Shown one piece after another: positions 14,101 to 34,663 of a stretch of 34,881 bases of DNA. Position 1 is the stretch's first letter, and the number at the start of each line of letters is the position of its first letter. A model generated the notes under the pieces. It was given only the letters and a program-made list of their open reading frames with translations, made no database searches and had not been told where the DNA came from. The DNA comes from a virus (lineage: Duplodnaviria; Heunggongvirae; Uroviricota; Caudoviricetes). The position numbers and the translations under genes were made by a program. Where the stretch lies: IMG/VR virus record IMGVR_UViG_3300028591_000140; one strand, given 5' to 3'.

Positions 14101-16963
14101 ACCAACCTGTTGGAACAGAAGTTAAATGATTTGTCTCAAAGCTATAAACCAGATCGTTTAGCCAGTCAATACTTGGAGCAGATGTGGCTCTCTTATATAG
14201 TCGAATTGTTGCCACATTCTTTCCATTTGCGCCAGGTGCACCATCTTGCGTTAAGATTACTGGATCCGACCATTCGTTTGCTGCAATATCAACAGAAGCC
14301 TCTGTAGAGCTTGCAGTCACAGCAGTTACATAAAGAGGATTACTTCCTCCAATATAGTCTCTGCTCCAGCCAGTTGGAACAGGGCTTAAACTGTGATCAG
14401 AAAAAGTATAGGTGGTCTGAACATTCGGCTTGCTCGGAGCCGTGGCTGAACGCATATACAAATATATGACAGCGGTATTATACGCATCCAAACCATCTGA
14501 GAGAATCTGCGTAACGTCAGTCCACTCAGTTGCAGCAATTGTATCGGTATCTCCAATAGCCATCGCAACCGCCTGAATCGAATAGCAGGGATTGCCGTCA
14601 GCCACGGGGATACTCTGAGACCATCCAGCAAGACCGGATGCCGGAGTAAGTTTTGCAGTATTAAAGGTATATGTGAGCGCCGCAGTCGGTTTAGCCGGAG
14701 TTGTATTGGATCTTTTATAAAGAACAACCACAGCGGTCTTCGGAGCATCTTCGCCATTTTGGGCCATAACTACAGGAGTTGACCACTCAGTATAAGGAAT
14801 CGTATCTGTATCAGATCTGGACCCAGCGGTTGCAGCCGTTATATAGATCGGATTATCATTATTAGGCAGATTTTTGAGATCATCTACCCAACCAGTCGGA
14901 AGACTTGTCAGCTTATTCGTGGAAAAGCTATACGTCAACATTTGGGTCCAGTCTATTGCGGCCGCAGTCGCAGAGCGCTTATACAAATACACAATCGCAG
15001 AGTTTGTACCTTGAGCACCCTGAATGCAAACAGGATCGGAGTAGTTATTATTCCCATTACCGTCGGTCATTTTGGTTCTCTGCCAAATATACTTACCGAG
15101 TTCCCATGCTGGACTCTCCGTTTGCCAAGCAGAAGAATCTTCTGGAGGAGGTGTGAGACTGGATGTATGACTCGCATACTCAACGTCAACATTTGTGATA
15201 GTCTCAGCTTTCCTCGCAAAGTCAAGAAGGGTATGGGCTGTGGCGGCTTTGACATTAACTCCTGGCTGAATTGTAGCATTCTTTGGGATCGTTGTTGTGA
15301 CCTCATAGATCAGCGTGTCTTGATCCGTCTGAATCTCGATTTTATCCCCAACAGCGTAGTCTCGAGTAGCTGTGTAACCAGTTTCCTTATAAGTATCCAG
15401 CATTGCTGTACTTGACAACCTAAACTCACCAGTTTCGAGATTCCAGTAGTTATAACCCTGAGCATCCGTCAAAAACCCGGTTCGAATGACCGTTGCAGCC
15501 AGATTGACGACATTAATAACTTGTGCGTCAAAGGTACCGTCGATTAGCCAAGCAGAATTGAAAGGCCCCCGATAGCCAGTCGTAGAAAAACCAATTCCAT
15601 TTTGATTTATACGAATGACTTGAACCGCAGTCTCAGTGCTCGGCTTATCCATCACCAAAATCTCTTGCGGTTCGCCATTGGCATTCAGGGTAACTTTGAC
15701 GTATCCGCCAAGGCCACCAGTGATCTTGTCTGTCGCAGAGCTAATCTGCTCATTCACATAGTCGGCAGTCACAGAACGACGAATCTGTCTCTGAATCTCT
15801 TCAAGAGCAGCCTGTGTGTCACTGGCAATCTCATCTGCATAAGAGGTTTGAGGGCTGCCAAGTTCAATCGCGTTATAGCGGTCAAGAAGAACGTTATAGA
15901 CAGTCTTAATAACTTCGGCATCGACCATCACGCCGATCCGAGTATGAATCACGTGGACAATGTCACACAGACTGACTTTTTCCAAAGGAGCGTAATCTTC
16001 ATACTCAGGAGTCTGCCAAAGCGCAACAAAACTGATCTTAATGTTATCCTCAGGAAGCCAAGGCTGAGCAGCCTCGAAAAGCTGTTTCGCTCTGGTCGCC
16101 AGTTGAGCCTGAGTCGGAGCTTCATCGAATTCAGAAGTCAGATCAAGCGGAGCATAGATCATGTTCTCCGAAGAAAACTCGATCGGATGACCCTGCTCGT
16201 CTCGAATGATCTCATCGTTTTCATTAGTCCAGAACACATGCTGAATTGCATCAGACTCACTGACAATTACACCATACTCGTCCAGAGTGACAAGAGTCTT
16301 ATTCCCTTCAGAATCTTCCTTGAACCAATACGGAACAATTGCTGTATAAACTTCACTCTCGTCGTACTCTCTGGTAATATCCGTCAAGTTTTTGCCATAG
16401 CGAATCTCAACACCATGGTCTACGCCACGATGCTCAAGAAAGCTGACATTCCATTTGTCATACTTGAACTCGCCGGGACCATAAAGATTGAGAATTGAAT
16501 CCCCATCTCCGGCCAGACGAGCCTTAATGGAAACCGGATACTCCACATCAAAGTTACTGAGAGTGCCTATATCAGTAAAGAAATTGAAGGGGCAGGCATT
16601 CATCGACTTGGCTTTCAGCATACTCATTGCTTCCGTGCAGCTCGAAGCGTGAAATGGAACAAGTATATGATTGCGAAGCCGATAGCTCAAATGATGAGCA
16701 TAGAATGTAACAATACCATCAATCGGAGCACTGTGCTTGTAGATTTCAAACGGCTGAATATCGCCATTGTCATCATGTGTAGCACCAATCAGTCGCCCCT
16801 CAAAGATCTCCTCAAAATATAGGCCATCAATCGGATACTTGAGCTCACATTCATAGATTCCGTTTCGCTCTTCGGTTACGAAGCAATCGACAGCATCTGC
16901 AAGCCTGCATATGCCCTGCGAGGTGAAGTCTTTTTCAGCATGATCATAGAGAATAGGAATCAT
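11171..16963 (-). CDS. Large tail tip/host-specificity protein (Tal-like N-terminus, 12 internal repeat modules)
   Basis: N-terminal prophage tail endopeptidase-like region (IPILY...GICRL.DA..C.V.EERNG.YE..L.YP); tandem repeats; directly after Dit. Start at ATG 16963 (ATGA overlap with the Dit stop, SD GAGGTGG). Confidence 0.9.
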   Translation of the reverse strand: MIPILYDHAEKDFTSQGICRLADAVDCFVTEERNGIYECELKYPIDGLYFEEIFEGRLIGATHDDNGDIQPFEIYKHSAPIDGIVTFYAHHLSYRLRNHILVPFHASSCTEAMSMLKAKSMNACPFNFFTDIGTLSNFDVEYPVSIKARLAGDGDSILNLYGPGEFKYDKWNVSFLEHRGVDHGVEIRYGKNLTDITREYDESEVYTAIVPYWFKEDSEGNKTLVTLDEYGVIVSESDAIQHVFWTNENDEIIRDEQGHPIEFSSENMIYAPLDLTSEFDEAPTQAQLATRAKQLFEAAQPWLPEDNIKISFVALWQTPEYEDYAPLEKVSLCDIVHVIHTRIGVMVDAEVIKTVYNVLLDRYNAIELGSPQTSYADEIASDTQAALEEIQRQIRRSVTADYVNEQISSATDKITGGLGGYVKVTLNANGEPQEILVMDKPSTETAVQVIRINQNGIGFSTTGYRGPFNSAWLIDGTFDAQVINVVNLAATVIRTGFLTDAQGYNYWNLETGEFRLSSTAMLDTYKETGYTATRDYAVGDKIEIQTDQDTLIYEVTTTIPKNATIQPGVNVKAATAHTLLDFARKAETITNVDVEYASHTSSLTPPPEDSSAWQTESPAWELGKYIWQRTKMTDGNGNNNYSDPVCIQGAQGTNSAIVYLYKRSATAAAIDWTQMLTYSFSTNKLTSLPTGWVDDLKNLPNNDNPIYITAATAGSRSDTDTIPYTEWSTPVVMAQNGEDAPKTAVVVLYKRSNTTPAKPTAALTYTFNTAKLTPASGLAGWSQSIPVADGNPCYSIQAVAMAIGDTDTIAATEWTDVTQILSDGLDAYNTAVIYLYMRSATAPSKPNVQTTYTFSDHSLSPVPTGWSRDYIGGSNPLYVTAVTASSTEASVDIAANEWSDPVILTQDGAPGANGKNVATIRLYKRATSAPSIDWLNDLVYSFETNHLTSVPTGWSESVPEGDDDLYATAATANSAGSTDTIAPNEWGAPVCITKNGLSWSTAAVFLYARADASTDLTKPTQTLDYSFPTGILSRGGQTGPSVLGGWSQEIPDSNGKPCFVIQATAVSDDGQTDTIAPSEWSDISKLVADGEAGTNGRSTVVLYLYKRSQAAPNIDWTKTLTYTFATNALSELPTGWSRDIPSGDYPLYVTAATATSTEATDTIPYTEWSAPILMAKNGKDGEAAAAGMNAATVFLYARAAAASALTKPNATLMYAFATGSLTPASGFSGWSQEIPAANGNSCFVIQATAISADATDTIATSEWSDITLFVSDGENGEPGLNSATVFLYARAASASALTKPSGNLTYTFSSGALTPASGFSGWSQTIPDSDSSGNPCFVIQATAANTTATDTIKASEWSAIKKLVVNGEDGRSIVSITEYYARSKVNTTAPSSWSTTVPTLTTSYKYLWNYEVVTYSDESTSETAKRVIGVYGNTGAAGKGISSIVNHYLATASGSGVTKETSGWTETVQSMTPANKYLWNYETINYTSGDPDESDPTIIGVYGEEGIGVRDVSEQYYLSTSSSSCTGGSWQATQPAWEQGKYIWTRSKITWTDIDSQTGTYRITYTTPICANAINGANEATKTLDDSLTQLEIYNRLTNNSNNEGVYLENSRLYINASMIATGIIKDKGTTYKNYWNLNTGYFQTKAGQIGDFLLGEFTATTGGATGHALAYLKYHDGGTYQYSKPYYAANTPNPGVVLCGVSSDDSTTGYTFLSQGRMYVTGYTNYAGRVRINAGMIFIDLGLTPSSPTSGWTTIASVNPWTGTGGRGLNINGNLAVSGNLACTGTKPRIVDTDDYGRRYLYAYENPTPMFGDVGEGEIGEDGLCYVWLEPIFAQTIEDGQYQVFLQKYGDGKCFVKTRASGYFIVQGTPGLTFGWEMKAKQKGYGMTRLQNETKNFGIMQPAMPENQDNFADVSNNYLQNLREGREST
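12253..15199 (-). repeat. Protein-level tandem repeats: 4 type-B and 8 type-A modules in the tail protein
   Basis: Type A (~85-97 aa, Y.R...TY.F....GWS..IP....DTI...EWS) eight times between 15001 and 12848; type B (~65 aa, W....P....KY.W) once before and three times after. Confidence 0.9.
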
Positions 16964-17682
16964 AGGACATACCACCTCGGCGTGATTTCAACTTTTGTAA
17001 TATCACCGGAAAACGTAAAATTGTTCACACCAGGAACCAGATCCGGATAGTCGATCGTAGAAAGAATGATGTTACGATTCATGGATGTAGCGCCAAAATA
17101 AGCGTTCATAGTCTCGAAATCAAGATCAACGAAGCTTGGAATATCGGAGATAGCAAAGACTGCTCCTCCCATTGTCAGAAGGCCGCTTCCATACTCAGTA
17201 GCATGGACACGAATCAAAGGTTTGGCCGGGAAGAGAGTCGGATTCTCAATAGAGAAGGACGATTCCTCAAATTCCTGCTTAACTTCTCCAGACTTCAGAA
17301 ATCTCTGCGGTTTGCAGTTAAAGACAACATCAAAAGATCCAAAAGAATTGTCAAACCAGACATCCGGATCAAATGCTTCTTTAAAAACAGCCATCCGAAA
17401 CTCGTCGGGATGATACGTGTCTTCAAGCCGCTGATAAGTCCGCTTAGACAGCATAAAGTTTCGAAAAGCAGCGATCTGGTCCTTAAATTCTTCCATGATG
17501 AAAGAAGAGTATTTCAAATCGTAATTCTCGAAGCGCTTGTTGTCGAAAATGAGGTCACCATTCTTACCAGGAATCGGGGTTACCTCAAAAGAATGGGCAG
17601 GAGCTCCAAACGTCCCCTGCCCATTGATGTATAAACCGAAGGTTGTGCTCGGCGTACCGGCAAAAGTAAAATAGTTTCTCAT
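16960..17682 (-). CDS. Distal tail protein (Dit)
   Basis: Position between tape measure and Tal; FTFAG..S..FGL.I...GKNGDL...FNCKPQRF...ENPTLFPAKPLI..ITPRW. Confidence 0.9.
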   Translation of the reverse strand: MRNYFTFAGTPSTTFGLYINGQGTFGAPAHSFEVTPIPGKNGDLIFDNKRFENYDLKYSSFIMEEFKDQIAAFRNFMLSKRTYQRLEDTYHPDEFRMAVFKEAFDPDVWFDNSFGSFDVVFNCKPQRFLKSGEVKQEFEESSFSIENPTLFPAKPLIRVHATEYGSGLLTMGGAVFAISDIPSFVDLDFETMNAYFGATSMNRNIILSTIDYPDLVPGVNNFTFSGDITKVEITPRWYVL

Positions 17683-25208: not shown

Positions 25209-27263
25209 TCAGGCAACCTCTTCCTCAAGAACGATGAAGCTCTTGATGCGAGTGGTGGCACCGGACACGCGAGTCTCGATCAGGCTCTTGTGCTGGTTGA
25301 AGTCGATGTCGAACTGCTCGAAGTGGGTGATCTCGCCGCCCTTGGTGGCACCCATGGAGTAGTCAGCCAGGTTACCCAGGATGGCCAGGAGACGGTAGGT
25401 CTTGGTCGTGCCGTTCACGGTCACAGTACGGGTCTTGTTGGCGAACTCGGGAACGTTGAAGACATTCTGAACCTCGAGGGTGGCGTTCAGCTCGGTCTTG
25501 TTAGTGAACATGCGGCGGCCGTTGCGGTCCTTCGCAAGTAGGAGCTTGTTGTAGAATGCCTGAGTGGAGAACATGTCCATAGCACCGGAGCCACGGTAGT
25601 CGATCATAGCATCGAGAATGGCTTCCTCAGCGGCCTCAGCATAGCGGTATGCATTGCCGAAGTTGGCAGCAGTGCCGGTACCATTGGCATTGACATCCAG
25701 AGTGATGACCTTGTGGATGGTGAAGAGCTCATCATCGGTCCAGATCGGGCGGATCTTATCCTCAGCGATCTTATCAGCATCGGCAGCGTCACGACCGTCA
25801 CCGATCAGGACAGCGCGGGCCAGCTCACCCTCCAGCAGCATCTTGTCAATACCGTACTGGTAGTCGATGTAACCGAAGTCCTGAATATCCAGAACGTCGT
25901 CACGGTTCAGAGCGGACTTGACATACACGGTCGTCGGAGCGGTCTCACGCTTGGCGACGTTGTAGCCATCAACCAGAGCCTTCTCCTTGCCCTTGGTCGC
26001 ACCCTTTGCACGGAGGCCCTCAATGTCACGAAGGTCGGCCTGCTGAGTACGGATACGGCTGAACGGGGTCTTGTGGATCTTACCGAGAACCTGCTTCACC
26101 CATGCACGGTCATTGGTGACGATCTCGGGAGCACCAGGACGGACATTGCGGAACTCGGGGAAGAGCAGGTCGATGTTGGCCGCAGTAGCGGGGGGAACGA
26201 TGTAGGAACCAAAGCCGCTCACGGGCTTGGGAGCTACGGGCGTAGGATCGTCGTCGGCGTGGGCCAGCTCATGCTCCGCGGCATAAGCCTCGAAAGCCTT
26301 CTTGAAGCTGCCGCAATCACGAGCGTCAGCGATGATCTGCATCTCATCAGCGTGAGAGAGGAAAGCGCCCTCAGGGGCAGTCTGGGCATCAAACACATTG
26401 TGCTTCATAATATCGTCTCCTTCGAGGTCCGAATGCTCGACCTCAGTTTCTTTGTTGTTGGTTTTGGCGTCCTCAAGAGCCTGACCGATCATGAAATACA
26501 CGACCTGCTTCTGCTCTTCAGTCAGGGAATCGAAGACCTGCTTAACAGTCTTCTCTTTGCCGTTGCCCTCGTCAGTGTCGTCATCATCGGAGTGCTGGAT
26601 AGGCTTCTCTTCGTCGGTGTCAGTGGACTTACCATTGGCTTCCTCCAGTGCCTGACCGATCATGAAGTAGACAACCTGTTTCTGCTCTTCGGTGAATTCA
26701 TCAAAGACATCTTTGACGGTCTTCTCCTTCTGTTCAGTCTTCACGTCATCTTTCTCCTTGTTGTCCTCCGGCTCTTCCTCAGAATCGGCATGACTTAATT
26801 CAAGTCCTTCCTCGCCGGAGAAGATCATGGCCTCTTCGAGAATCGGCTCATCAGTACCGTCAGAATGGGAGAGAACCGGATTGTCGATATAGGCACCAGG
26901 ATTAGCCCCGGCCAGGACAAGACTTACTTCCTTGATCGCGCCATGGAGAACATCTCCACCGCGCTGCTGAAGCTGATTGGCGTAAATAGACAGCGAGGTA
27001 ATATCACCATGCTGCACAAGCGCCTTGGCATACTGGCCCCAGTCCGTCTCATTGAAAGAGCAGTAGGCATAAACACCCTCATCACGATTCTCGAGCAGAG
27101 CGTGACCGAGAACGTTGGTCGGGTCATCATGACGATGCTGCCAAACAAGAGGGACGGTCTGACCGTCGTTATCTTTGAATGCATCCTTACGGATGGTGCG
27201 GCCATCGGAACAACGCAGATCATTTCTGGTTGCCCAACCGCTGAAGTCAAACTTAGGTCCCAT
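25209..27263 (-). CDS. Fused prohead protease - scaffold - major capsid protein
   Basis: N-terminal HK97-type protease motifs (FSGWAT..D..CSDGR.I...AF, VPLVWQH, LSI.A, EVSLVLAGANPGA); acidic linker; C-terminal capsid domain (E.ARA.LIGDGR, FDIDFNQ.K.LIETR.SG). Confidence 0.93.
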   Translation of the reverse strand: MGPKFDFSGWATRNDLRCSDGRTIRKDAFKDNDGQTVPLVWQHRHDDPTNVLGHALLENRDEGVYAYCSFNETDWGQYAKALVQHGDITSLSIYANQLQQRGGDVLHGAIKEVSLVLAGANPGAYIDNPVLSHSDGTDEPILEEAMIFSGEEGLELSHADSEEEPEDNKEKDDVKTEQKEKTVKDVFDEFTEEQKQVVYFMIGQALEEANGKSTDTDEEKPIQHSDDDDTDEGNGKEKTVKQVFDSLTEEQKQVVYFMIGQALEDAKTNNKETEVEHSDLEGDDIMKHNVFDAQTAPEGAFLSHADEMQIIADARDCGSFKKAFEAYAAEHELAHADDDPTPVAPKPVSGFGSYIVPPATAANIDLLFPEFRNVRPGAPEIVTNDRAWVKQVLGKIHKTPFSRIRTQQADLRDIEGLRAKGATKGKEKALVDGYNVAKRETAPTTVYVKSALNRDDVLDIQDFGYIDYQYGIDKMLLEGELARAVLIGDGRDAADADKIAEDKIRPIWTDDELFTIHKVITLDVNANGTGTAANFGNAYRYAEAAEEAILDAMIDYRGSGAMDMFSTQAFYNKLLLAKDRNGRRMFTNKTELNATLEVQNVFNVPEFANKTRTVTVNGTTKTYRLLAILGNLADYSMGATKGGEITHFEQFDIDFNQHKSLIETRVSGATTRIKSFIVLEEEVA
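26470..26729 (-). repeat. Duplicated ~31-aa helical unit in the scaffold region
   Basis: KEKTVKDVFDEFTEEQKQVVYFMIGQALEEA and KEKTVKQVFDSLTEEQKQVVYFMIGQALEDA. Confidence 0.9.
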
Positions 27264-28497
27264 TTTGATTTGTCTCCTTTATTTCATTCTCTGGACTCAC
27301 TTCAGCCTCTTTCGACTGATTCAAGTTCTTATTTCGCAGTTCATCGGCCTTGGGATCATCACTGGGTTTCATACCAATAATGCTTCTTACCTCATTGGAA
27401 GATAGGATTTCATTGCGGGTGAACTTATCAGCGATGTCGGCAAGAGCTGAAACAGGGATAAGCTTGAAGTAATCCTGGAAGAAAGAAATAGACTGCCCTT
27501 GAGTTCGGGCAGCCTTGGTTAAAAATTTTCGCCGCATCTCTTCCACAAAAGCGGTACAGATAACGGCGATGATTCGATTTTGGTAATTACGCATAGTCTC
27601 TTCGTTGGCTGTACCATTGAGAATCTCATTCGTAATACCCAACTGGCCCATCAGTGTCTCAGTCAGATACTTGATTTGATTCATCAAATTGTTTTCAACC
27701 GGTCGATTCAACTGCGTAATTCGCTCAGTTCCATCAGTATAAGCGATGCCATACTTAGAACCAGCAAGCTGCATCTCGATGTCTTTGCGTCGTTTCTCAG
27801 CCTGCTGCTTACGAGCTTCGGTCTTAATAACGTAAGGAAGCTGAATAATCAAATCCAGTTTCCCAGCACTACTCTGCTCATCAACCGCATCCAAAAGATT
27901 GAGTTTCCGGATGAGCCGCTGAAGAGTCGAGTTAGGCTCGTTCATAATGGAGTAGAATGGATTCTCTATAATGGCAACCATCTTTTTGGGAAGAACAACT
28001 TCTCTTCGACGGCCGGTGTTCTCATCATAGAGTTCAACCTTTACATGCTTCGGCATCCATTCTTTGATCTTCCCTGTCCGCAGAGTCTTTATGTCATACC
28101 CATTGGAGAGAAGCGGATTGATGGTCGTATCTACAGGAACGATGGCCACAACACCTTCGTCAAACATAGACATGACAGCATCTTGGATCATTGCACGGCC
28201 TGTCTGATCAACATTAGCTTCAACTGAGAGACAGTTATTCAAGCCAGAGTCGATCATCTCCTTAAATCGGCCTTTATCATCAAGTCGAACATTTCGAATA
28301 TCAACAGATGCTACATCTGCGGCAATACGATTAAATATCGAATTGATGATTGAACGCTCATTACTATAAGAGGAATGGCGTTTGCTCTGATTATAAGAAG
28401 ACCCGCCGTAGTAAAAGTCTACGGACGGGACAGGAGTGGGATCTTTGTTGTTAAAGGCATTCCATGCATGCTGGAGCCTTTCAGTCATTGTGGGCAT
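27253..28497 (-). CDS. Portal protein
   Basis: 414 aa directly before the protease; IA.D.A...I..VR, L..EAN.DQTGR, ENP.Y..MNEPNSTLQRL..KL. Confidence 0.93.
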   Translation of the reverse strand: MPTMTERLQHAWNAFNNKDPTPVPSVDFYYGGSSYNQSKRHSSYSNERSIINSIFNRIAADVASVDIRNVRLDDKGRFKEMIDSGLNNCLSVEANVDQTGRAMIQDAVMSMFDEGVVAIVPVDTTINPLLSNGYDIKTLRTGKIKEWMPKHVKVELYDENTGRRREVVLPKKMVAIIENPFYSIMNEPNSTLQRLIRKLNLLDAVDEQSSAGKLDLIIQLPYVIKTEARKQQAEKRRKDIEMQLAGSKYGIAYTDGTERITQLNRPVENNLMNQIKYLTETLMGQLGITNEILNGTANEETMRNYQNRIIAVICTAFVEEMRRKFLTKAARTQGQSISFFQDYFKLIPVSALADIADKFTRNEILSSNEVRSIIGMKPSDDPKADELRNKNLNQSKEAEVSPENEIKETNQNGT

Positions 28498-28516
28498 ACA
28501 CGGCCCTCCTTAGAAG

Positions 28517-29206
28517 TTACACATCTTTTGCTGCTTCTTCCATGGCATAGGCCAATGTACTCAGAGGAATACCACTGCGAGAAATATTGTTGAATTCTTT
28601 CACAGCTTGCTTATAAGCGGAACTCTTTTTGACAGAAGAATCTTTGATGGCAGAGATTCGCATAGACTTATACGTATCAACAGCCTGCTTGACTCGAGTC
28701 TGGCCAGCTTTGACATACTGTGTACCCTTGTCGAAATCCTTCAGTTTTTCTGAAGCTCCTTTTTTCTCGAGCTTAGCTCTGGTCTTTTCTCTACCAGCAA
28801 GCGTTGATTCGTTCTGCTTGGAAAGCTTTGACTCAAATTTTCCAACAGTCTTCTCAACCTTTGCAATTTTTCGAGATTCTGTAGCCTCTTTTTTGGCTTT
28901 ATCAGCAGCATCTGCTTTTGCCAGCAGCTTATCCTTTACGGCTTTATTGGCCGATGCCATAGCTTGATTGCCATGCTTAGAATAGTAACGCTCATTAACG
29001 TCATAAACTTTAGCGAGTGCTCTCCGAGCTGTTCCACCAACAGAATGATAGTTTTCACCAGATCCCTCGCTAAAATAACGCTTTTTGCCAGCCTCATTGA
29101 AGGTGCCATCAGCATTCTGCCAGCGTCTTACACCCCACTTCATACCCTTGATACCATGGTGCATAAGATCCTCTTCGCGCTGGAAAGAATAGCCATACAT
29201 TTCCAT
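28517..29206 (-). CDS. Basic LxH-HGxxGxKWG leader protein (candidate capsid cargo)
   Basis: EDLMHHGIKGMKWGVRRWQN.DG; Lys-rich. Start placed at ATG 29206 (track start 29218). Confidence 0.8.
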   Translation of the reverse strand: MEMYGYSFQREEDLMHHGIKGMKWGVRRWQNADGTFNEAGKKRYFSEGSGENYHSVGGTARRALAKVYDVNERYYSKHGNQAMASANKAVKDKLLAKADAADKAKKEATESRKIAKVEKTVGKFESKLSKQNESTLAGREKTRAKLEKKGASEKLKDFDKGTQYVKAGQTRVKQAVDTYKSMRISAIKDSSVKKSSAYKQAVKEFNNISRSGIPLSTLAYAMEEAAKDV

Positions 29207-29230
29207 TTTGAATTTCACCTCTTGTGGCGT

Positions 29231-30013
29231 TTAATTCACCGCATTATTGTGCTTCTCGTTCTCGCGCAAAATTTTAGCGAGTTCCTGCTGACGCTGGTAT
29301 TCGGCCATTCGACGGTCGGATTTTACTTTTTGTTTAGCGGCATCTGTCAAAGCATCGCCCTTAGACGATTCATACGCAGATCGAAGTTTCTTATAATCGC
29401 CAGTTAAATATGACATTTTAACGTGGTTTTCAGAATTTCCATACAACGTGTCAATCACTTTTTGGCCAGTTGACATTTTCGACCGCATATCTTTTCGCTG
29501 CTTTTCGAGCATTTGTCTCTTGACAACCGCAGATGTGGCATTTGCTAATTCTTGATTTGCACCAGTGAGATTCTTAAAAATACGTTCGGCCGATGACTGA
29601 CCGGCTTCAATGTCGCGTCTGATAATCCGTGCCAAGCGTATTTCAGCCTGCTGAGAAGTCATGGACTCATTAAACTCTTTTTCAAGCTGTTCATCTTTTC
29701 GTAAAAGTTTATTTGCTTTTTTCTCATCAGAAGCCTTAGCTTTCTCAAGCATTTGCTCTTTTACTTTTCTGTTCGCTTCAGCCATCGCAGAGTTTCCACG
29801 TTTGGAATAAAACCGCTCGTTAATGTCATAAACCTTTGCAAGAGCTCGGCGAGCATTTCCACTAAAAGAACGTTCATTTCCATAACGTTCTCTCCCAGCA
29901 GCCGTCCAAGTTCCGTCCTCATTCTGATAACGACGGATACCCCATTTTTGGCCTTTAATGCCGTGATGCTGGAGAGTGCTCTCACAGGTGAAGTTGTAAC
30001 CGTAATAGTTCAT
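29231..30013 (-). CDS. Basic LxH-HGxxGxKWG leader protein (candidate capsid cargo)
   Basis: STLQHHGIKGQKWGIRRYQNEDG; shares an ARRALAKVYD.NER block with 28517..29206. Confidence 0.8.
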   Translation of the reverse strand: MNYYGYNFTCESTLQHHGIKGQKWGIRRYQNEDGTWTAAGRERYGNERSFSGNARRALAKVYDINERFYSKRGNSAMAEANRKVKEQMLEKAKASDEKKANKLLRKDEQLEKEFNESMTSQQAEIRLARIIRRDIEAGQSSAERIFKNLTGANQELANATSAVVKRQMLEKQRKDMRSKMSTGQKVIDTLYGNSENHVKMSYLTGDYKKLRSAYESSKGDALTDAAKQKVKSDRRMAEYQRQQELAKILRENEKHNNAVN

Positions 30014-30039
30014 AATAGGTTACTCCCATTTAAAAGTGA

Positions 30040-31791
30040 TTATTCAAAAGCGTCACGGTTAGCCTTCCATGCGACATAGGCATCAAGCATGGCTGCCACG
30101 TTATCAATCTTGTCTTGGCGACGCTTCTTTAGCAATTTACGGTTACCATTGGTATCCTCCAGAGTAATGCAGTTACCCATGGTGAAGGTCATGAGCTCCT
30201 GATCAAAGATCAGCATTCGCTCTTCGGCATAAGTCTTTAACTCGCCAAGAGGGACTGACTCGGTCTTGGAGCCCTGAATGACTTTCTCGATACCAAATGG
30301 ACCGTTCTCTCGTTCCCAACGTTCGACAAATTCTTTAGCATTGTACGGGTCAAAGCCAAAACATCGAACATCATAACCAGTCTCGATAATATACTGATCC
30401 AAATCATCGTAGACCTGCATCATGTCCAGCACCGTGCAGTCAAGCACAATCAAACTTCCTTCATTGAGGAAGTCGTTATACTTGATTCGCATAGCAACTG
30501 GCAACTTATTCAGTGTGATCGAAGAAATATAGCTTCGAACCTTTACGCCGAAACCTCCATTCTTCAACGGGAACAAGAACGTGAAGGCACAGAAGTCGTC
30601 TCCCTGTGAAAGGTCTGCTCCAAGAGCACAGGGCATAGACCAGAAGTCTCTTCTTCGATGCGGAAGAGTCTCCTCATATGTAAAGAAGTACGTGTACCCC
30701 TCCATCGGGAGATTAAACCGCTTGGCCAAAATATCGTTCCGTGCTGCGGGAACCTTCTCGGCTCTCTCAACATCACGCTGATAAGTCTCATAGGTGACAG
30801 TTCGCCCAAGATTCGGATTTGCTTTCAGCCACATCTCGGGCTGAGCAACTTCTTTAATATCATCAAGCTTGTAATACCAGATCGAAACATTCGGAGCTAT
30901 GTATTCACCCTTAAGGATGGACATAAGCTCCATTTTGATTGTGTCACCAGCAGCGTTTCGGACAGTACCCTCAGAGCTGGTAGCAACAATCACATAGTCA
31001 TCCAGACCACCTTTGGCTGCACCCTGTTCAAGAGCACCAATAGGATCCTCTCGGATGTCACAGGACAACCATTCGTCGATCGTGGCACACTTCACTCGCA
31101 GACCCTGAAGCTTGTCGATCGCCATAGGACGAATCTCAAGCAAAGAGCCAGTCAAGAAGTTCTCAATGCCCTTCTTTGTGGAAGCCAGTTTGACACGGTT
31201 AGCCTTCGATCCGGTTGTGTTCTGGAGCGAACCTTCCGTTAAGAACTTAAACAGCGGTCCACGGGATCGAACAATTGAAGTTCGAATCGGAGATAAGACC
31301 TCTTCAGACTGTTTCATTGTAGGAGCAGTCGTAACCTGATGAGTCGTAGTCCCATCAATATTGAGGAAATATGACTGGATACAAGAGGCATACATAGATT
31401 TAGCAGCACCTCTGGCTACAATGAGGTACTGCTTATTAATCAGGCGTTGTTTAATTCTCTTATTGACATATCGGCCGCCATGGTTATCCGGATTCGGCTC
31501 ATAGACCGAACGTGTAACAAAGTAATACCAGCCGAAGATCTGTTCTGCCCAAACCTTGAACGTATCAAGAAGCAGAAGGTCAGATCCATCTGTCAGGGTC
31601 AGTTCGTTCTCACAATATCGAATGAACCCCTCGACTGCATCCTCGTCGTAATACACGCCGGGGTTTGCAATCAAGTCATCAATACGGTTCATCTCCATGG
31701 AGATCTCTCGACAAACCGGGATCTCGCCACGAATGACTGCATCCCGAAATTGCCCGTAATACTTCGGGACCGCAGTGTTTGATAAACTCAT
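30040..31791 (-). CDS. terL: Terminase large subunit
   Basis: Walker A VARGAAKS, Walker B ATIDE, nuclease ALGADLSQGDDF and C-terminal KIDNVAAMLDA. Confidence 0.97.
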   Translation of the reverse strand: MSLSNTAVPKYYGQFRDAVIRGEIPVCREISMEMNRIDDLIANPGVYYDEDAVEGFIRYCENELTLTDGSDLLLLDTFKVWAEQIFGWYYFVTRSVYEPNPDNHGGRYVNKRIKQRLINKQYLIVARGAAKSMYASCIQSYFLNIDGTTTHQVTTAPTMKQSEEVLSPIRTSIVRSRGPLFKFLTEGSLQNTTGSKANRVKLASTKKGIENFLTGSLLEIRPMAIDKLQGLRVKCATIDEWLSCDIREDPIGALEQGAAKGGLDDYVIVATSSEGTVRNAAGDTIKMELMSILKGEYIAPNVSIWYYKLDDIKEVAQPEMWLKANPNLGRTVTYETYQRDVERAEKVPAARNDILAKRFNLPMEGYTYFFTYEETLPHRRRDFWSMPCALGADLSQGDDFCAFTFLFPLKNGGFGVKVRSYISSITLNKLPVAMRIKYNDFLNEGSLIVLDCTVLDMMQVYDDLDQYIIETGYDVRCFGFDPYNAKEFVERWERENGPFGIEKVIQGSKTESVPLGELKTYAEERMLIFDQELMTFTMGNCITLEDTNGNRKLLKKRRQDKIDNVAAMLDAYVAWKANRDAFE

Positions 31792-31809
31792 TTTGAATTG
31801 TCCAATCTA

Positions 31810-31838
31810 TTGCATGTGTGCAATTGTTATGGTAAACT
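31810..31838 (+). promoter_or_regulatory. Sigma70/SigA-type promoter for the EcsC-family gene
   Basis: TTGCAT(31810-31815), 17-nt spacer, TAAACT(31833-31838) with extended TG; SD GAGGTG at 31845-31850; ATG at 31858. Confidence 0.7.
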
Positions 31839-31857
31839 TAGGATGAGGTGATGCTAT

Positions 31858-32511
31858 ATGGATGAAAAGAAAGATCGAAAGCAATTACTTAATCCAGAGA
31901 AACTGATGAAAGCTCTGGATTGGCTTTACGATAAAGCGACCAGCGGTGTTTCTGGAGCAGGAGGGTGTTGGAAACTTGCCGAAGATTACCGGAACAAGTA
32001 CAAAGATCCAAAGCTTGCTGCAAAGAAACTGGCTAAATCTCAAATAGCCAAATGTACGCTTTCAGGAACAGTCACCAGCGTCGGTGGAATTATAACTTTA
32101 CCAGTAGCGCTCCCAGCTAACATAACCTCTGTTTGGTATGTAGAGCTCCAAATGATTGCAGCCATTGCCGTGTTAGGCGGTTATGATCCGTCGCATGATG
32201 AAGTGAAAATGCTCAGTTATGCATGTCTTTGCGGTTCAAGCGTTATGGATGCTTTAAGTGCCGCAGGAGCTGACTTTGCCGTCAAAGGCGGTAAAGTCCT
32301 TATTGGAAAAATCCCCGTTGAAACAATTCGTGCAATTAACCATAAGCTTGGCGTGCGATTTGTTACCAAATGGGGCGAGACTGGTGTTATCAACCTCGGA
32401 AAAATGGTGCCCGTTCTTGGTGCTGGCGTTGGCGGAGCATTCGATCTTGTTTCATCCAGCATTGTTGCAAAATCTGCAATCAAGACCTTTGTGGATGATA
32501 AGATTCTTTAA
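31858..32511 (+). CDS. EcsC-family protein (moron, opposite strand)
   Basis: LA.DY...Y....A...L...Q..K...SG.VT..GG.ITLPVALPAN...V.Y....MIAAIA..GGYD; FVTK.G..G.INLGKM.PV.GA.VGG.FD. Confidence 0.85.
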   Translation: MDEKKDRKQLLNPEKLMKALDWLYDKATSGVSGAGGCWKLAEDYRNKYKDPKLAAKKLAKSQIAKCTLSGTVTSVGGIITLPVALPANITSVWYVELQMIAAIAVLGGYDPSHDEVKMLSYACLCGSSVMDALSAAGADFAVKGGKVLIGKIPVETIRAINHKLGVRFVTKWGETGVINLGKMVPVLGAGVGGAFDLVSSSIVAKSAIKTFVDDKIL

Positions 32512-33005
32512 TCCGGAATATAGTCCCAGGTGCCCTTCAGGACATCTACGACTTCAGGTCCATACTCTTTGATCACTGCCGCAGCCTTCTTAGCACCAGC
32601 AATGGCAGTAGCAGGATCCTTAGCCATCTTACCAATAGTCGCGCCAACCACGGCAACTGCAACGGCTTCGGCACTCTTTTCTCCAACTTTCTGGAGAATT
32701 TTCTGACTGGCAGTCTGACCTTGCCTTTTCGCCCCAGCCATCTGCTTGAGTGCATCCTCATTACGCAGACGATTCAGACGATCCTGAAGCTCTCGATCGG
32801 AAAGCTGATCACGATACTTGTAGAGCTCTTTGGCATTCGTGGATTTGACGAGTTCGTCATGAGTCGGACCTTTGGCTTTCTTCTTAGCCTCGCCGACTTC
32901 TTTGCCGCCCTCTCCACTTTTACGGCCTCTCACAGAATATGGCTGAAAGCGACGTACGCCCCATTTCATACCAAGAATCCCATAATGGGCCAGATAATCT
33001 TCCAT
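32508..33005 (-). CDS. Basic LxH-YGxxGxKWG leader protein (candidate capsid cargo)
   Basis: MEDYLAHYGILGMKWGVRRFQ; SD GAGGTGG places the start at 33005 (track start 33053). Confidence 0.8.
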   Translation of the reverse strand: MEDYLAHYGILGMKWGVRRFQPYSVRGRKSGEGGKEVGEAKKKAKGPTHDELVKSTNAKELYKYRDQLSDRELQDRLNRLRNEDALKQMAGAKRQGQTASQKILQKVGEKSAEAVAVAVVGATIGKMAKDPATAIAGAKKAAAVIKEYGPEVVDVLKGTWDYIPD

Positions 33006-33019
33006 AGTATTCCACCTCT

Positions 33020-33364
33020 TTATGGCGTTTCGGCATCCACATTGCCACGCCATTCGAATTCCTTAATGTCTTCTTTGTATGCATTAAGAACGGCTGAACT
33101 CTGCGGAGGATCGAAAACAACCTTAACTTTTTCAAAAATGTAAGTCTTGACCGTTTGGATCTGATCGCCATTAATGAAATCGTCCCAGGTTTCATCTGCT
33201 CCCTCAATCACAAAAGGCTTGTCTGTAGGGCCGACCCCGATCTGAAAGCAAATGCCAAACGCAGAGTTAATAAATAGGATAAGCTCGGGATCGAAGTGAG
33301 TGTAATCTGCTTCAATTCCGAGCATTTTCTTAATAGATGTGAGAATACTCTCCATTTGAGCCAT
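33020..33364 (-). CDS. Head-tail adaptor (gp6/gp15-like), displaced upstream of the terminase
   Basis: SIL.SIKK.LGI...YT.FD..L...INSAF..L.Q.GVG...DPP.SS pattern. Confidence 0.7.
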   Translation of the reverse strand: MAQMESILTSIKKMLGIEADYTHFDPELILFINSAFGICFQIGVGPTDKPFVIEGADETWDDFINGDQIQTVKTYIFEKVKVVFDPPQSSAVLNAYKEDIKEFEWRGNVDAETP

Positions 33365-33375
33365 TTTGATTCACC

Positions 33376-33885
33376 TCATCCACGATTCACAGTATCCTGC
33401 TTGTAGGCCACACGACCAGAAGCATAAACGCCATTACGAACCTTATCCATGTTATAGCCTTGATCAGCCACAGCCATGTAAACGCCCAATTCACCACGCT
33501 TTGCGACGAAGCGAATAGCTCGACCAGATGGTGCTGTGACATCCTTCATAGAAGTATTCATCAACTCAGCCATCTTGCGATTATAGGCGTTCATGTAAGT
33601 GCGGCTGTCTTTGCCGGCTTTAGTGGCTTTTGCCAGAGCACGAAGTTCGCCTTTTTCATACTGTCGCATATCAGACTTAGTTCGCTTTGTGGCTTGCTTC
33701 ATGATAGACTTTTCATGCCTCTTAGCCCACTTCACATCTTTCTTCATAGACTTCTCATCCAGGCGAGCCTTGTGTCGTTTCCCAGCCGCAGTCAGAGTCC
33801 CATCAGGATTCTGGTAGCGTCTGACACCCCATTTCATACCAAGGATTCCATGGTGCATCAGATAGTCTTCAAACGACGGATTCAT
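33376..33885 (-). CDS. Basic LxH-HGxxGxKWG leader protein (candidate capsid cargo)
   Basis: DYLMHHGILGMKWGVRRYQNPDGTLT.AGK; Lys/Arg-rich. Confidence 0.8.
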   Translation of the reverse strand: MNPSFEDYLMHHGILGMKWGVRRYQNPDGTLTAAGKRHKARLDEKSMKKDVKWAKRHEKSIMKQATKRTKSDMRQYEKGELRALAKATKAGKDSRTYMNAYNRKMAELMNTSMKDVTAPSGRAIRFVAKRGELGVYMAVADQGYNMDKVRNGVYASGRVAYKQDTVNRG

Positions 33886-33891
33886 TTTGAT

Positions 33892-34317
33892 CTACCTCCA
33901 AGGGCATGTATCGTGAGGAGACCGAACAGTCGGCTCCGTTGGAATGAGTAAAGACTCGTCCCCATAGTGAATAGCATTATGGGTCGAGTCCATGGTACAG
34001 ATGAGATTCTCAGGATCGAATAGTTTGGGACTTCGATTCTTGACATCATCTATAGTGATGGGATTGAGATGGTGAACGATGATGCGAGCTCCACTTGGGA
34101 TCGGTCGGTCTTCGCAACCGAGATCACAGCCATTATCTCGAATGATGACTTTCCTTCGAGCAGCCCTCCAGTCTTTATCATCGTGATAAAGCTTCTGGTT
34201 TAAGTACCGGTCGAAGCCAAAAGTTGATTCACCAACTTTCCCATCTAAACGGAGATACTCAAAGCGTTCTTCAAAGGTCGGAAGCGAAGACAACTCAGTA
34301 TATGTCAAAGTCTTCAT
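33892..34317 (-). CDS. HNH endonuclease (packaging-associated)
   Basis: RDNGCDLGC...VHHLNPI...NLIC....THNAIHYG; start at ATG 34317 behind GAAAGGA (the track's 34482 extension overlaps the upstream gene). Confidence 0.9.
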   Translation of the reverse strand: MKTLTYTELSSLPTFEERFEYLRLDGKVGESTFGFDRYLNQKLYHDDKDWRAARRKVIIRDNGCDLGCEDRPIPSGARIIVHHLNPITIDDVKNRSPKLFDPENLICTMDSTHNAIHYGDESLLIPTEPTVRSPHDTCPWR

Positions 34318-34663
34318 CGCTCTCATCCTTTCGATCGCCGCGATACTCCTTAAATGCATTGATAGCATTACTGTAAAGCTCTTCGATCCGCTTGGCAGAT
34401 TGGAGAGCTTCTGTCTTTGCGCCATCAAGTTCGATCTTCTTACTGAGCAGTTCAAGCTCTTTGCGTTCTTTGGTCGAACCAAGGCGTAAAAAATGGACTA
34501 CCTCTGCCGAAGTAGCCGTACCATTTCTCAGACGCTCCTCAGCCAAGTCATAAGCCATAGCTATGAGTTGATTCTCTCGAGCCTCAGGAGAAAGTGCTGG
34601 ACGAGTTTTGGGTCTGGCAGAGGTGGTTTGCATAGCCTTTTGGCGAGCCATACCCAACTTCAC
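34295..34663 (-). CDS. Putative terminase small subunit
   Basis: First gene of the packaging operon, before HNH; short helical protein (PEARENQLIA.AYDLAE.RL..GTA). Function inferred from position only. Confidence 0.5.
   Translation of the reverse strand: MKLGMARQKAMQTTSARPKTRPALSPEARENQLIAMAYDLAEERLRNGTATSAEVVHFLRLGSTKERKELELLSKKIELDGAKTEALQSAKRIEELYSNAINAFKEYRGDRKDESDEDFDIY

What the first reader, a model, noticed from the sequence alone, without database searches (positions are those of the whole stretch)
26253..33885. Candidate His-specific capsid maturation and cargo-loading system: shared [LIV]-x-H motif in the capsid polyprotein and four leader proteins
Seen: the linker between protease and capsid domains has six [LIV]-x-H-[SA]-D motifs (LSHSD 26859-26873, LSHAD 26784-26798, IQHSD 26586-26600, VEHSD 26427-26441, LSHAD 26346-26360, LAHAD 26253-26267). 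Four separate basic proteins around the terminase begin with a short leader ending in L-x-H followed by [HY]GxxGxKWG[VI]RR (LMH, LAH, LQH, LMH), then diverge. Established: T4 prohead protease gp21 cleaves after [IL]-x-E in scaffold and capsid precursors and also removes the capsid-targeting leaders of internal proteins IPI-III; IPI* is injected and blocks the GmrSD restriction enzyme. Inference: this HK97-type protease cuts after P3-aliphatic/P1-His, an unusual specificity, and the HGxxGxKWG module is a capsid-targeting tag for a variable set of co-injected effectors (anti-defence, DNA condensation or host takeover). It could be usable as an engineering tag.
Basis: partly seen in the sequence, partly recalled or inferred. 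Interest (0 to 1): 0.85.

Follow-up and report, generated by a model that had tools for sequence, protein, structure and literature searches.

The report
Shared His motif: capsid and cargo
In this phage of a gut Firmicute the capsid protein is made fused to its own protease through a spacer studded with a short "hydrophobic-x-His" motif, and the same motif opens a conserved tag on four small basic proteins and marks the joints of their multi-part relatives, so these proteins are probably handled by the head protease and carried inside the virus particle, although no cleavage has yet been measured.

Summary
The gene at 25209-27263 (minus strand) encodes an HK97-type (S78) protease, an acidic helical spacer and an HK97-fold capsid protein. 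The spacer has six [LIV]-x-H-[SA]-D motifs; shuffling gave three or more in 0 of 200,000 trials. Four basic proteins carry Pfam DUF7211, read L-x-H-[HY]-G-I-x-G-x-K-W-G.

New here:
- In 50 related spacers, 90% of His residues have L/I/M/V two residues before them.
- In 50,697 phage records the fusion and DUF7211 occur in the same genera with near-identical counts.
- In 150 non-redundant multi-module DUF7211 proteins, 43% of 197 internal joints carry the capsid-spacer motif just upstream of the tag, against 1.3% expected (p about 1e-103).
- The DUF7211 protein ORF7 of Lactococcus phage 1706 is annotated "structural protein".

I read the motif as the head protease's recognition site and DUF7211 as a disordered cargo tag. 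The following remain inferred:
- cleavage after His;
- cleavage of the tag's own His;
- injection of the cargo.

The scan has reported the same idea before on other DNA (e1-5335038, e1-3447660) and on this genome (e1-1833794). I class it as a new variant of the T4-type head-cargo system.

The parts
25209..27263 (-). Gene for the protease-scaffold-major capsid protein fusion (684 aa)
   Evidence: phrog_3270 E 1e-207; Pfam Peptidase_S78; 244 phage records carry homologues annotated 'major capsid and protease fusion protein'
26871..27263 (-). Protease domain, residues 1-131; catalytic candidates His43 and Ser92
   Evidence: AF2 pLDDT 76-96; HHalign to HK97 gp4, probability 86%, E 4.8e-6, pairs His43 with gp4 His65 and Ser92 with gp4 Ser114; both invariant in 56 sequences
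26259..26870 (-). Acidic scaffold-like spacer, residues 132-335 (pI 4.2): three helical units separated by disordered segments that hold the His motifs
   Evidence: AF2 helices 183-209, 240-268 and 304-331; pLDDT<50 at 132-134, 142-178, 214-235, 269-298 and 336-361; pI
26859..26873 (-). Site 1, LSH133|SD, at the end of the protease domain; His invariant in the family
26784..26798 (-). Site 2, LSH158|AD
26586..26600 (-). Site 3, IQH224|SD, after helical unit 1
26427..26441 (-). Site 4, VEH277|SD, after helical unit 2
26394..26408 (-). Extra site MKH288|NV (M-x-H-N-V-F-D); N289 is at least 90% conserved and F291 invariant in 56 homologues, but the His is replaced by Arg or Gly in some
26346..26360 (-). 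Site 5, LSH304|AD, at the N-cap of the last helical unit; His at least 90% conserved
26253..26267 (-). Site 6, LAH335|AD, the last His site before the capsid N-arm (candidate maturation site)
25209..26258 (-). Predicted mature major capsid protein, residues 336-684, HK97 fold
   Evidence: Foldseek hit to HK97 1ohg, E 1.3e-10; VIA-align Z 16.4, rmsd 6.4, 261 aligned, model 349-683 against HK97 gp5 105-383
33376..33885 (-). DUF7211 protein of 169 aa (pI 10.2), member of a conserved full-length family; tag core LMHHGILGMKWGVRR at 33817-33861
   Evidence: PF23847, 43.1 bits; 22 full-length homologues at 46-86% identity in alignment A4; AF2 gives residues 1-21 pLDDT<50
32508..33053 (-). DUF7211 protein of 181 aa (pI 9.7); tag core at 32949-32993; a start at Met17 (33005) would give the short leader MEDYLAH
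   Evidence: PF23847, 44.3 bits
29231..30013 (-). DUF7211 protein of 260 aa (pI 9.8); tag core at 29930-29974
   Evidence: PF23847, 23.9 bits, E 2.7e-5, below the cut-off; own motif HMM E 1.9e-18
28517..29218 (-). DUF7211 protein of 233 aa (pI 9.9); tag core at 29123-29167
   Evidence: PF23847, 37.7 bits
27253..28497 (-). Portal protein (context; lies between the cargo genes and the fusion)
   Evidence: PF04860 E 4e-17; phrog_12
30040..31791 (-). Terminase large subunit (context; flanked by DUF7211 genes)
   Evidence: PF20441 E 3e-36; phrog_9

Best explanation
The gene at 25209-27263 makes one chain with three parts: an HK97 gp4-type serine protease (residues 1-131), an acidic helical scaffold (132-335) and an HK97-fold capsid protein (from about 336).

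The motif [L/I/M/V]-x-His-[Ser/Ala/Gly/Asn]-[Asp/Glu], repeated in the disordered gaps of the scaffold, is the recognition site of that protease. After the shell assembles, the protease most likely cuts after His (P3 aliphatic, P1 His, P1' small). This would free itself, chop the scaffold into peptides of 11-66 residues, and leave a capsid protein of about 349 residues.

The four basic DUF7211 proteins are head cargo. Their N-terminal 20-30 residues form a disordered peptide tag that begins with the same P3-P1 triplet (L-x-H). Through this tag they are recognised inside the procapsid. In multi-module relatives, capsid-type His sites just upstream of each tag let the protease cut one polyprotein into separately tagged modules.

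After the acidic scaffold leaves, the basic cargo stays with the DNA and probably enters the host with it.

Shown: motif statistics, domain folds, co-occurrence, and junction enrichment. The virion annotation of one homologue is read from a GenBank record. Inferred: the scissile bond, whether the tag's own His is cut or only docks, the binding partner, and injection.
For: 1. Motif in the window: 6 copies observed; three or more arose in 0 of 200,000 shuffles.

2. Motif in the family: of 322 His in 50 related spacers, 90% have L/I/M/V at P3, 81% have S/A/G/N at P1' and 51% have D/E at P2'. The figures are 17%/18%/13% for His in the capsid domain and 24%/26%/9% for other ORFs of the same loci.

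3. AF2 places all seven sites in low-confidence gaps or at helix ends between three helical units. The last site lies 14 residues before the position that aligns with residue 105 of HK97 gp5; from my own knowledge, mature gp5 starts at Ser104.

4. Protease identity: Pfam S78 above the cut-off; HHalign to HK97 gp4 E 4.8e-6; His43 and Ser92 invariant.

5. DUF7211: His at the putative P1 in 174/174 cores (88 loci) and in 329/330 cores (150 library representatives); L/I/M at P3 in 172/174.

6. Co-occurrence: the fusion is in 244 and DUF7211 in 232 of 50,697 phage records. Genus counts are the same: Arthrobacter 95, Gordonia 55, Streptomyces 54, Curtobacterium 7, Rhodococcus 4, Microbacterium 4, Faecalibacterium 2. 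Every DUF7211-seeded viral locus longer than 13.1 kb holds the fusion. Of 23 fusion loci with at least 8 kb upstream, 22 hold 1-7 tags, all upstream.

7. Independent of the tag's own triplet: 11 of 22 internal junctions and 85 of 197 junctions in 150 non-redundant polyproteins carry [LIVM]xH[SAGN] within about 26 residues upstream of the tag, against 1.3% expected (binomial p 8e-104). For junction His residues, P3 is LIMV in 61%, P2 is Lys in 29%, P1' is Ser in 41% and P2' is D/E in 49%, much as in the capsid spacer. One such polyprotein (P0001) sits between a terminase-like gene and a portal plus a fusion with the same spacer sites.

8. Virion: Lactococcus phage 1706 ORF7 holds two DUF7211 modules and is annotated 'structural protein' in GenBank EU081845.

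9. The tag is predicted disordered (pLDDT<50 for residues 1-21), as expected for a peptide that folds on a partner.

10. Cargo-like fusions in relatives: Gln_amidase toxin domain (5), GNAT, ADP-ribosyltransferase exoenzyme, 2'-5' RNA ligase. One portal carries a C-terminal DUF7211 module.

11. Charge: cargo pI 9.7-10.2 against spacer pI 4.2.
Against: - No N-terminal sequence, peptide map or structure exists for any member. The PDB holds no sequence relative of the fusion, and no paper in the library mentions DUF7211 or its motif.
- All DUF7211 tags are homologous, so the match of their L-x-H to the spacer motif is a single evolutionary observation. My rough estimate is a chance of about 0.1 for a conserved 20-mer.
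- The tag's P1' and P2' are aromatic and Gly (95% H/Y/F/W), not Ser/Ala and Asp/Glu.
- Polyproteins keep a separate canonical site 5-22 residues upstream. The spacer between the two His residues resembles the natural N-termini of single-module proteins (for example SDELYH|HG against M..ELYH|HG). This suggests the tag may need to sit near a free N-terminus rather than be cut itself.
- Outside the junctions, His residues of DUF7211 proteins show no motif enrichment.
- Co-occurrence could reflect common descent of one conserved gene block.
- The His at the MKH|NVFD site is Arg or Gly in some homologues.
Confidence: 0.55

Rival explanations
1. Only the canonical [LIVM]-x-H-[SA]-[DE] sites are protease sites. 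The L-x-H that opens DUF7211 is part of a binding peptide and is never cut. The tag must lie within about 5-20 residues of a free N-terminus. That N-terminus is supplied by the start codon in single-module proteins, or by a canonical cut just upstream in polyproteins. The tag binds something other than the protease active site, such as the portal crown, the scaffold helices or the inner capsid surface.
For: The tag's P1'/P2' are aromatic-Gly, against Ser/Ala-Asp/Glu in spacers. Of internal tags, 88% have a His and 43% a canonical site in the 28 residues upstream, and the intervening peptide resembles native leaders. Leaders are short (median His position about 12; some are only M-D-Y-L-A-H). 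One natural portal-DUF7211 fusion exists. The tag is disordered on its own.
Against: The invariance of His and of Leu at P3, with acidic residues upstream, is what the spacer sites show too. Tandem His sites 3-4 residues apart also occur inside capsid spacers. In phage 1706 the residue after the tag's His is Arg or Lys, so that position is not strictly aromatic.
Confidence: 0.3
2. The His motif is not a cleavage site at all. It is a repeated docking or assembly motif, for example multivalent contacts between the spacer and the shell or portal, or metal-bridged His/Asp contacts. The protease would cut elsewhere.
For: No cleavage data exist. His followed by an acidic residue could bind metal. 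The motif also occurs at conserved positions inside the folded protease domain (LVQH85|GD, VLH107|GA).
Against: The motif sits in disordered gaps that delimit each helical unit, at the exact end of the protease domain and just before the capsid N-arm. It recurs at module boundaries of polyproteins. The aliphatic P3 and small P1' pattern matches the site logic I recall for the related T4 gp21 ([L/I]-x-E) and herpesvirus assemblin ([V/L/I]-x-A|S) proteases. A hydrophobic P3 requirement is not expected for metal binding.
Confidence: 0.1
3. DUF7211 proteins are not virion cargo. They are basic DNA-binding helpers of packaging. The copy just upstream of the large terminase would stand in for a small terminase, which is not evident in this lineage. 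They share the motif only by descent.
For: In the window and in phages 1706, Kardesai, Bing and GantcherGoblin, a DUF7211 gene occupies the position directly upstream of TerL. No small terminase was recognised by Pfam or PHROGs in the window. The proteins are basic and helical.
Against: Phage 1706 ORF7 is annotated as a structural protein. There are 1-7 copies per phage, fusions to toxin and enzyme domains, and polyproteins of up to five modules. None of this fits a terminase subunit.
Confidence: 0.05

Closest known systems
Phage T4 internal proteins (IPI, IPII, IPIII, Alt) with the capsid targeting sequence, processed by the prohead protease gp21
   Same: Basic, non-essential proteins and an ADP-ribosyltransferase are loaded into the scaffold core. 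Short N-terminal peptides are removed by the same protease that trims the capsid protein and degrades the scaffold. IPI is injected and inhibits GmrSD (PMC9958956). Cargo here also includes an ADP-ribosyltransferase domain in a relative. The site logic of aliphatic P3 and fixed P1 is from my own knowledge of gp21 ([L/I]-x-E).
   Different: - The protease here is HK97 gp4-type (Pfam S78), not the T4 type, and is fused to the capsid protein.
- P1 would be His, not Glu.
- The conserved element (DUF7211) lies downstream of the putative cut, whereas the T4 targeting sequence lies upstream and is removed.
- No experiment exists for this system.
HK97 maturation protease gp4 and capsid protein gp5 (delta domain)
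   Same: The protease domain aligns to gp4 with the catalytic His and Ser conserved. The capsid domain has the HK97 fold. An N-terminal scaffold-like segment is removed from the capsid protein. From my own knowledge, a short terminal peptide of gp4 targets it, and reporter proteins fused to it, into proheads.
   Different: Protease, scaffold and capsid protein are one chain here. The scaffold is a set of helical units separated by repeated His motifs. A separate family of tagged cargo proteins exists; HK97 is not known to have one.
Herpesvirus assemblin (protease-scaffold precursor with release and maturation sites [V/L/I]-x-A|S)
   Same: The protease is fused upstream of the scaffold. There is a release site at the end of the protease domain and further sites in the scaffold, with aliphatic P3 and small P1' (my own knowledge). 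The phage prohead proteases share the assemblin fold.
   Different: P1 is His instead of Ala, and the capsid protein is also part of the chain. The fold of the protease domain was not tested here; capsid matches filled the fold-search lists.
MuF polymorphic toxins of temperate phages (Jamet et al. 2017, PMC5576092)
   Same: A conserved head-associated N-terminal module is encoded in the DNA-packaging region of Firmicutes phages. It is fused to swappable C-terminal toxin or enzyme domains and is proposed to be delivered with the DNA.
   Different: No MuF domain is present. DUF7211 is a peptide of about 25 residues predicted to be disordered, not a folded domain. It is linked to a protease motif and occurs in several copies per phage and per protein.
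Pfam PF23847 (DUF7211)
   Same: The four proteins match it. The family is uncharacterised.
   Different: Pfam gives no function. The link to the capsid-spacer motif, the polyprotein junction sites and the restriction to fusion-bearing phages come from this scan, not from the literature searched.
Giant phage (phiKZ, SPN3US) head proteins processed by the prohead protease at S/A/G-x-E
   Same: Many head-internal and ejection proteins are cut by the prohead protease at a short shared motif. I did not read the SPN3US paper (PMC5694885), which only appeared in the search list; the motif itself is from my own knowledge.
   Different: Different protease family, a different P1 residue, and no common peptide tag like DUF7211.

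Membership tests
Pfam PF23847 (DUF7211) | Match to the family HMM at or above the curated cut-off (27 bits) | tested here: met
   43.1, 44.3 and 37.7 bits for three proteins. The fourth (29231-30013) scores 23.9 bits (E 2.7e-5), below the cut-off, but matches a motif HMM built here at E 1.9e-18.
HK97 gp4-type prohead serine protease (Pfam Peptidase_S78) | Sequence match to the family | tested here: met
   PF04586 at 22 bits against a cut-off of 21, over residues 23-126. HHalign to HK97 gp4: probability 86%, E 4.8e-6.
HK97 gp4-type prohead serine protease (Pfam Peptidase_S78) | Catalytic His and Ser present (gp4 His65 and Ser114; numbering from my own knowledge) | tested here: met
   The alignment pairs window His43 with gp4 His65 and Ser92 with gp4 Ser114. 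Both are invariant in 56 homologues.
HK97 gp4-type prohead serine protease (Pfam Peptidase_S78) | Assemblin-like fold of the protease domain | tested here: inconclusive
   Fold searches of the whole 684-residue model returned only capsid matches.
HK97-fold major capsid protein | HK97 fold over the whole domain | tested here: met
   VIA-align Z 16.4 to 1ohg_A (rmsd 6.4, 261 aligned) and Z 17.7 to the GTA capsid 6tb9. Foldseek E 1e-10.
T4-type capsid-targeted, protease-processed internal proteins | Cargo shares the protease's cleavage motif with capsid and scaffold proteins | tested here: met
   P3 and P1 of the tag match the spacer motif. Canonical spacer-type sites are enriched at cargo polyprotein junctions, 43% against 1.3%. 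The tag's own P1' and P2' differ.
T4-type capsid-targeted, protease-processed internal proteins | Cargo is present in virions and is proteolytically processed | not testable with these tools
   The only evidence is the GenBank annotation 'structural protein' for phage 1706 ORF7. The paper behind it is not held. No processing data exist.
T4-type capsid-targeted, protease-processed internal proteins | Targeting peptide lies N-terminal of the cut and is removed | tested here: not met
   Sequence before L-x-H is short and variable. The conserved element lies after the putative cut.
MuF polymorphic toxins | MuF (SPP1 gp7-like) domain | tested here: not met
   No MuF family hit in Pfam for any of the four proteins at E<=0.01.

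The most novel reading that the evidence does not exclude
DUF7211 is a pseudo-substrate docking tag. Its L-x-H-aromatic-Gly opening sits in the active-site groove of the protease domain that every capsid subunit carries. Each procapsid would then offer hundreds of identical docking sites, and any protein with the tag near a free N-terminus would be loaded. Polyproteins would be cut at upstream His sites into individually tagged modules. The cargo (basic DNA-binding proteins, toxins, acetyltransferases, an ADP-ribosyltransferase) would be injected with the DNA. If so, this is a programmable protein-packaging system with a protease specificity (P1 His) that I know from no other prohead protease, spread over tens of thousands of phages of Actinobacteria and Firmicutes.
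Probability: 0.2. Interest if true: 0.8.

Novelty: new variant of a known kind. Interest (0 to 1): 0.62.

Why it matters
Protein cargo carried inside phage heads, such as T4 IPI and Alt, decides the first minutes of infection. Outside T4-like and giant phages there is almost no way to predict which proteins are packaged.

If the reading is right, one 25-residue tag plus one protease motif identify the head cargo of a very large siphophage lineage. There are 33,714 clusters at 50% identity in the library. The lineage includes hundreds of cultured Arthrobacter, Gordonia and Streptomyces phages and the Lactococcus 1706 group, where the idea can be tested at the bench.

It would also define a prohead protease with His at P1. 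It would explain why this lineage fuses protease, scaffold and capsid protein. And it would offer a short tag for loading foreign proteins into capsids of Gram-positive phages.

Tried and rejected
- Complex prediction of fusion residues 1-340 with the 169-aa DUF7211 protein gave no verdict (score 0.00, controls not run). This counts neither for nor against binding.
- A covariation test (does the tag's His change when the spacer's P1 changes?) was impossible. The His is invariant in every tag seen.
- No whole genome is held for the window.
- PF23847 was found only in the centre genome itself among the 401 Bacillota genomes searched (none of the 400 sampled), so prophages gave no extra sample.
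- A PDB sequence search with the fusion found nothing.
- Fold searches did not reach the protease domain.
- Literature: no paper contains 'DUF7211' or the motif strings. The phage 1706 paper (Garneau 2008) and the Rhodococcus phage paper (PMC3020559) are not held.
- The Arthrobacter and Gordonia survey papers mention the fusion at most and contain no proteomics.
- Lactococcus phage P087 and Oenococcus phage OE33PA turned out to belong to other head lineages.
- ReqiPepy6 'structural protein' labels are by similarity to phage 1706 only.
- My first guess at the catalytic residues (His54, Ser114) was replaced by His43 and Ser92 after alignment to HK97 gp4.
- Autoproteolysis at His-Ser was considered and rejected, because Ala, Gly and Asn are common at P1'.

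Full report
**What is in the window**

All genes of the finding lie on the minus strand, in this order:
- HNH endonuclease (33892-34482)
- DUF7211 protein of 169 aa (33376-33885)
- connector protein (33020-33364)
- DUF7211 protein of 181 aa (32508-33053)
- a plus-strand EcsC-family gene (31858-32511)
- large terminase (30040-31791)
- DUF7211 proteins of 260 aa (29231-30013) and 233 aa (28517-29218)
- portal (27253-28497)
- a 684-aa protein (25209-27263)

The 684-aa protein matches PHROG 3270, 'head maturation protease', at E 1e-207 and Pfam Peptidase_S78 over residues 23-126.

**Check of the observation**

Shuffling the 237-residue spacer gave three or more [LIV]xH[SA]D in none of 200,000 trials, against six observed. 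Two of the six sites belong to a tandem duplication of a helical unit.

There is a seventh site, conserved in relatives: MKH288|NVFD. The four proteins are basic (pI 9.7-10.2) and the spacer is acidic (pI 4.2). An HMM of the tag finds no further copy in the window.

**Anatomy of the fusion**

I folded the protein with AlphaFold2 using 56 homologues (mean pLDDT 75). The model shows:
- a confident domain at 1-131;
- three helical units (183-209, 240-268, 304-331) separated by low-confidence segments;
- a capsid domain from about 364.

The capsid domain has the HK97 fold (Foldseek E 1e-10 to 1ohg). VIA-align gives Z 16.4, with model residues 349-683 on HK97 gp5 105-383.

The N-terminal domain aligns to HK97 gp4 (HHalign probability 86%, E 4.8e-6). 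His43 pairs with gp4 His65 and Ser92 with gp4 Ser114. That these are the catalytic residues of gp4 is my own knowledge. Both are invariant in 56 sequences.

All seven His sites fall in the disordered gaps or at helix ends:
- one at the very end of the protease domain (His133, invariant in the family);
- one after each helical unit;
- the last (His335) 14 residues before the position equivalent to the start of mature HK97 gp5.

The window has a 28-residue insertion at that point. In most relatives the last His lies only 4-8 residues before the N-arm motif N-I-D-x-L-F-P.

**The motif is a family property**

tblastn finds the fusion in 244 of 50,697 phage records: Arthrobacter, Gordonia, Streptomyces, the Lactococcus 1706 group, Faecalibacterium, Bifidobacterium and others. 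It also occurs in at least 499 viral contigs and in Lachnospiraceae and other Clostridia genomes.

In 50 spacers I counted 322 His residues. The table compares them with His in the capsid domain and in unrelated ORFs of the same loci.

| His residues from | L/I/M/V at P3 | S/A/G/N at P1' | D/E at P2' |
|---|---|---|---|
| Spacers (322) | 90% | 81% | 51% |
| Capsid domain | 17% | 18% | 13% |
| Unrelated ORFs, same loci | 24% | 26% | 9% |

Almost every spacer His is therefore part of the motif. This is what one expects of a protease recognition site in a scaffold that must be dismantled.

By analogy with the related proteases, the cut would fall after His. T4 gp21 uses [L/I]-x-E| and herpesvirus assemblin uses [V/L/I]-x-A|S (my own knowledge). 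That would place the aliphatic residue at P3 and Ser/Ala at P1'. This is inference; no cleavage data exist.

**The tag**

The four proteins match Pfam DUF7211, for which no paper in the library has a word.

- Across 88 loci, all 174 genuine cores have His two residues before the first Gly, and 172 have L/I/M at P3.
- The residue after the His is H/Y/F/W in 95% of cores, but Arg and Lys in phage 1706.
- A library-wide profile search finds 33,714 cluster representatives.
- The tag is usually within about 12 residues of the start codon.
- The sequence before L-x-H is short and variable.
- AlphaFold2 of the conserved 169-aa family leaves residues 1-21 below pLDDT 50. The tag therefore behaves as a peptide motif, not as part of a fold.

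**Co-occurrence**

A 40-residue tag query hits 232 phage records. Its genus counts match those of the fusion: Arthrobacter 95, Gordonia 55, Streptomyces 54, Curtobacterium 7, Rhodococcus 4, Microbacterium 4, Faecalibacterium 2.

Every tag-seeded viral locus longer than 13.1 kb contains the fusion. Of 23 fusion loci with at least 8 kb upstream, 22 contain one to seven tags, all upstream.

It is not met. Shared descent of one gene block could still explain part of this.

**Independent evidence from polyproteins**

All tags are homologous, so the identity of their L-x-H with the spacer motif is only one observation. I therefore looked for the spacer-type motif elsewhere in cargo proteins.

It is not enriched in their bodies. 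It is strongly enriched just upstream of internal tags:
- 11 of 22 junctions in the loci fetched;
- 85 of 197 junctions (43%) in 150 non-redundant multi-module proteins from the library, against 1.3% expected (binomial p 8e-104).

In those 197 junctions, 88% have a His in the 28 residues upstream. These His residues show L/I/M/V at P3 in 61%, Lys at P2 in 29%, Ser at P1' in 41% and Asp/Glu at P2' in 49%. Lys is also the commonest P2 residue in the capsid spacers.

Examples are KIKH|SDDILEH|HG, EIAH|SDDWLAH|YG and KLRH|ADFSSSDYLMH|WG.

One five-module protein, P0001, lies next to a portal and a fusion whose spacer reads VIEH|AD, SIEH|AE, SLTH|AE and FLAH|AA.

So the capsid motif marks the module boundaries of the cargo. 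This is hard to explain unless the same protease acts on both.

**What remains open**

The junction data cut both ways for the tag's own His. The peptide between the canonical site and the tag looks like the natural N-terminus of single-module proteins. The tag may simply need a nearby free N-terminus and may never be cut (rival 1).

The aromatic-Gly after the tag's His differs from Ser/Ala-Asp. The tag could be a substrate, a pseudo-substrate that docks in the protease groove, or a ligand of another head component.

A complex prediction gave no verdict.

**Virion evidence**

In GenBank EU081845, ORF7 of Lactococcus phage 1706 is annotated 'structural protein'. This protein sits directly upstream of the terminase and contains two DUF7211 modules. 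From memory, that annotation rests on LC-MS/MS of SDS-PAGE bands in Garneau et al. 2008; I could not read the paper.

One viral contig encodes a portal with a C-terminal DUF7211 module and a basic tail. This would place the module inside the head.

Relatives fuse the tag to a glutamine-deamidase toxin domain, GNAT acetyltransferases, an ADP-ribosyltransferase and a 2'-5' RNA ligase. That range resembles T4 Alt and the MuF polymorphic toxins.

**Comparison and verdict**

The system works like the T4 internal-protein system, but it is not a member of it:
- the protease is HK97-type and fused to the capsid protein;
- the fixed residue is His, not Glu;
- the conserved element lies after, not before, the putative cut.

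Earlier agents of this scan reached a similar reading on other DNA (e1-5335038, e1-3447660) and on a neighbouring window of this genome (e1-1833794). So the idea is not new to the scan. I found nothing on it in the literature searched.

- the family-wide site statistics;
- the 1:1 co-occurrence in the phage database;
- the junction enrichment;
- the catalytic-residue mapping;
- the phage 1706 virion annotation.

I rate it a new variant of a known kind, with interest 0.62.

Noticed in passing
L109:5239-6891: A viral contig encodes one 551-aa ORF made of a portal (Pfam Phage_portal, residues 56-381), an acidic linker ending DDEMEHFAH, then HGIKGQKWG and a basic tail of about 125 residues. This is a natural portal-DUF7211 fusion. 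It could also be an assembly error.
   Followed up: partly
window 32508-33053 and 33020-33364: The 181-aa DUF7211 ORF overlaps the end of the connector gene by 34 nt if it starts at Met1. A start at Met17 (33005) removes the overlap and gives the short leader MEDYLAH, like the leaders of orthologues.
   Followed up: partly
window 27009 and 26943 regions (residues His85 and His107 of the fusion): Two conserved His residues inside the folded protease domain also sit in motif-like contexts (LVQH|GD, VLH|GA). They may be structural, or they may be self-inactivation sites like the internal site of herpesvirus proteases.
   Followed up: no
window 32508-33053, 28517-30013; phages 1706, Kardesai, Bing, GantcherGoblin (L009, L004, L005, L003): No small terminase was recognised. 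A DUF7211 gene regularly occupies the position just upstream of the large terminase, and an HNH endonuclease is conserved nearby.
   Followed up: no
window 26175-26258 (residues 336-363): Compared with eight homologues, the window's fusion has a 28-residue Pro-rich insertion (ADDDPTPVAPKPVSGFGSYIVPPATAA) between the last His site and the capsid N-arm.
   Followed up: partly
window 31858-32511 (+): An EcsC-family gene (Pfam E 1.7e-8) is the only convincing plus-strand gene in the head module. It lies between a DUF7211 gene and the terminase.
   Followed up: no
window 3432-5054 (-), 5522-6739 (-), 11171-16975 (-): Context genes: an endolysin with Phage_lysozyme2, CHAP and PG_binding_1 domains; a reverse transcriptase (RVT_1), which other notes of this scan assign to a diversity-generating retroelement; and a 1934-aa tail protein with a Prophage_tail endopeptidase domain.
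   Followed up: no
P0001-P0150 (library representatives): The best-scoring DUF7211 proteins are polyproteins of up to 1569 residues with two to five tags. The modules between tags mostly have no Pfam family.
   Followed up: partly
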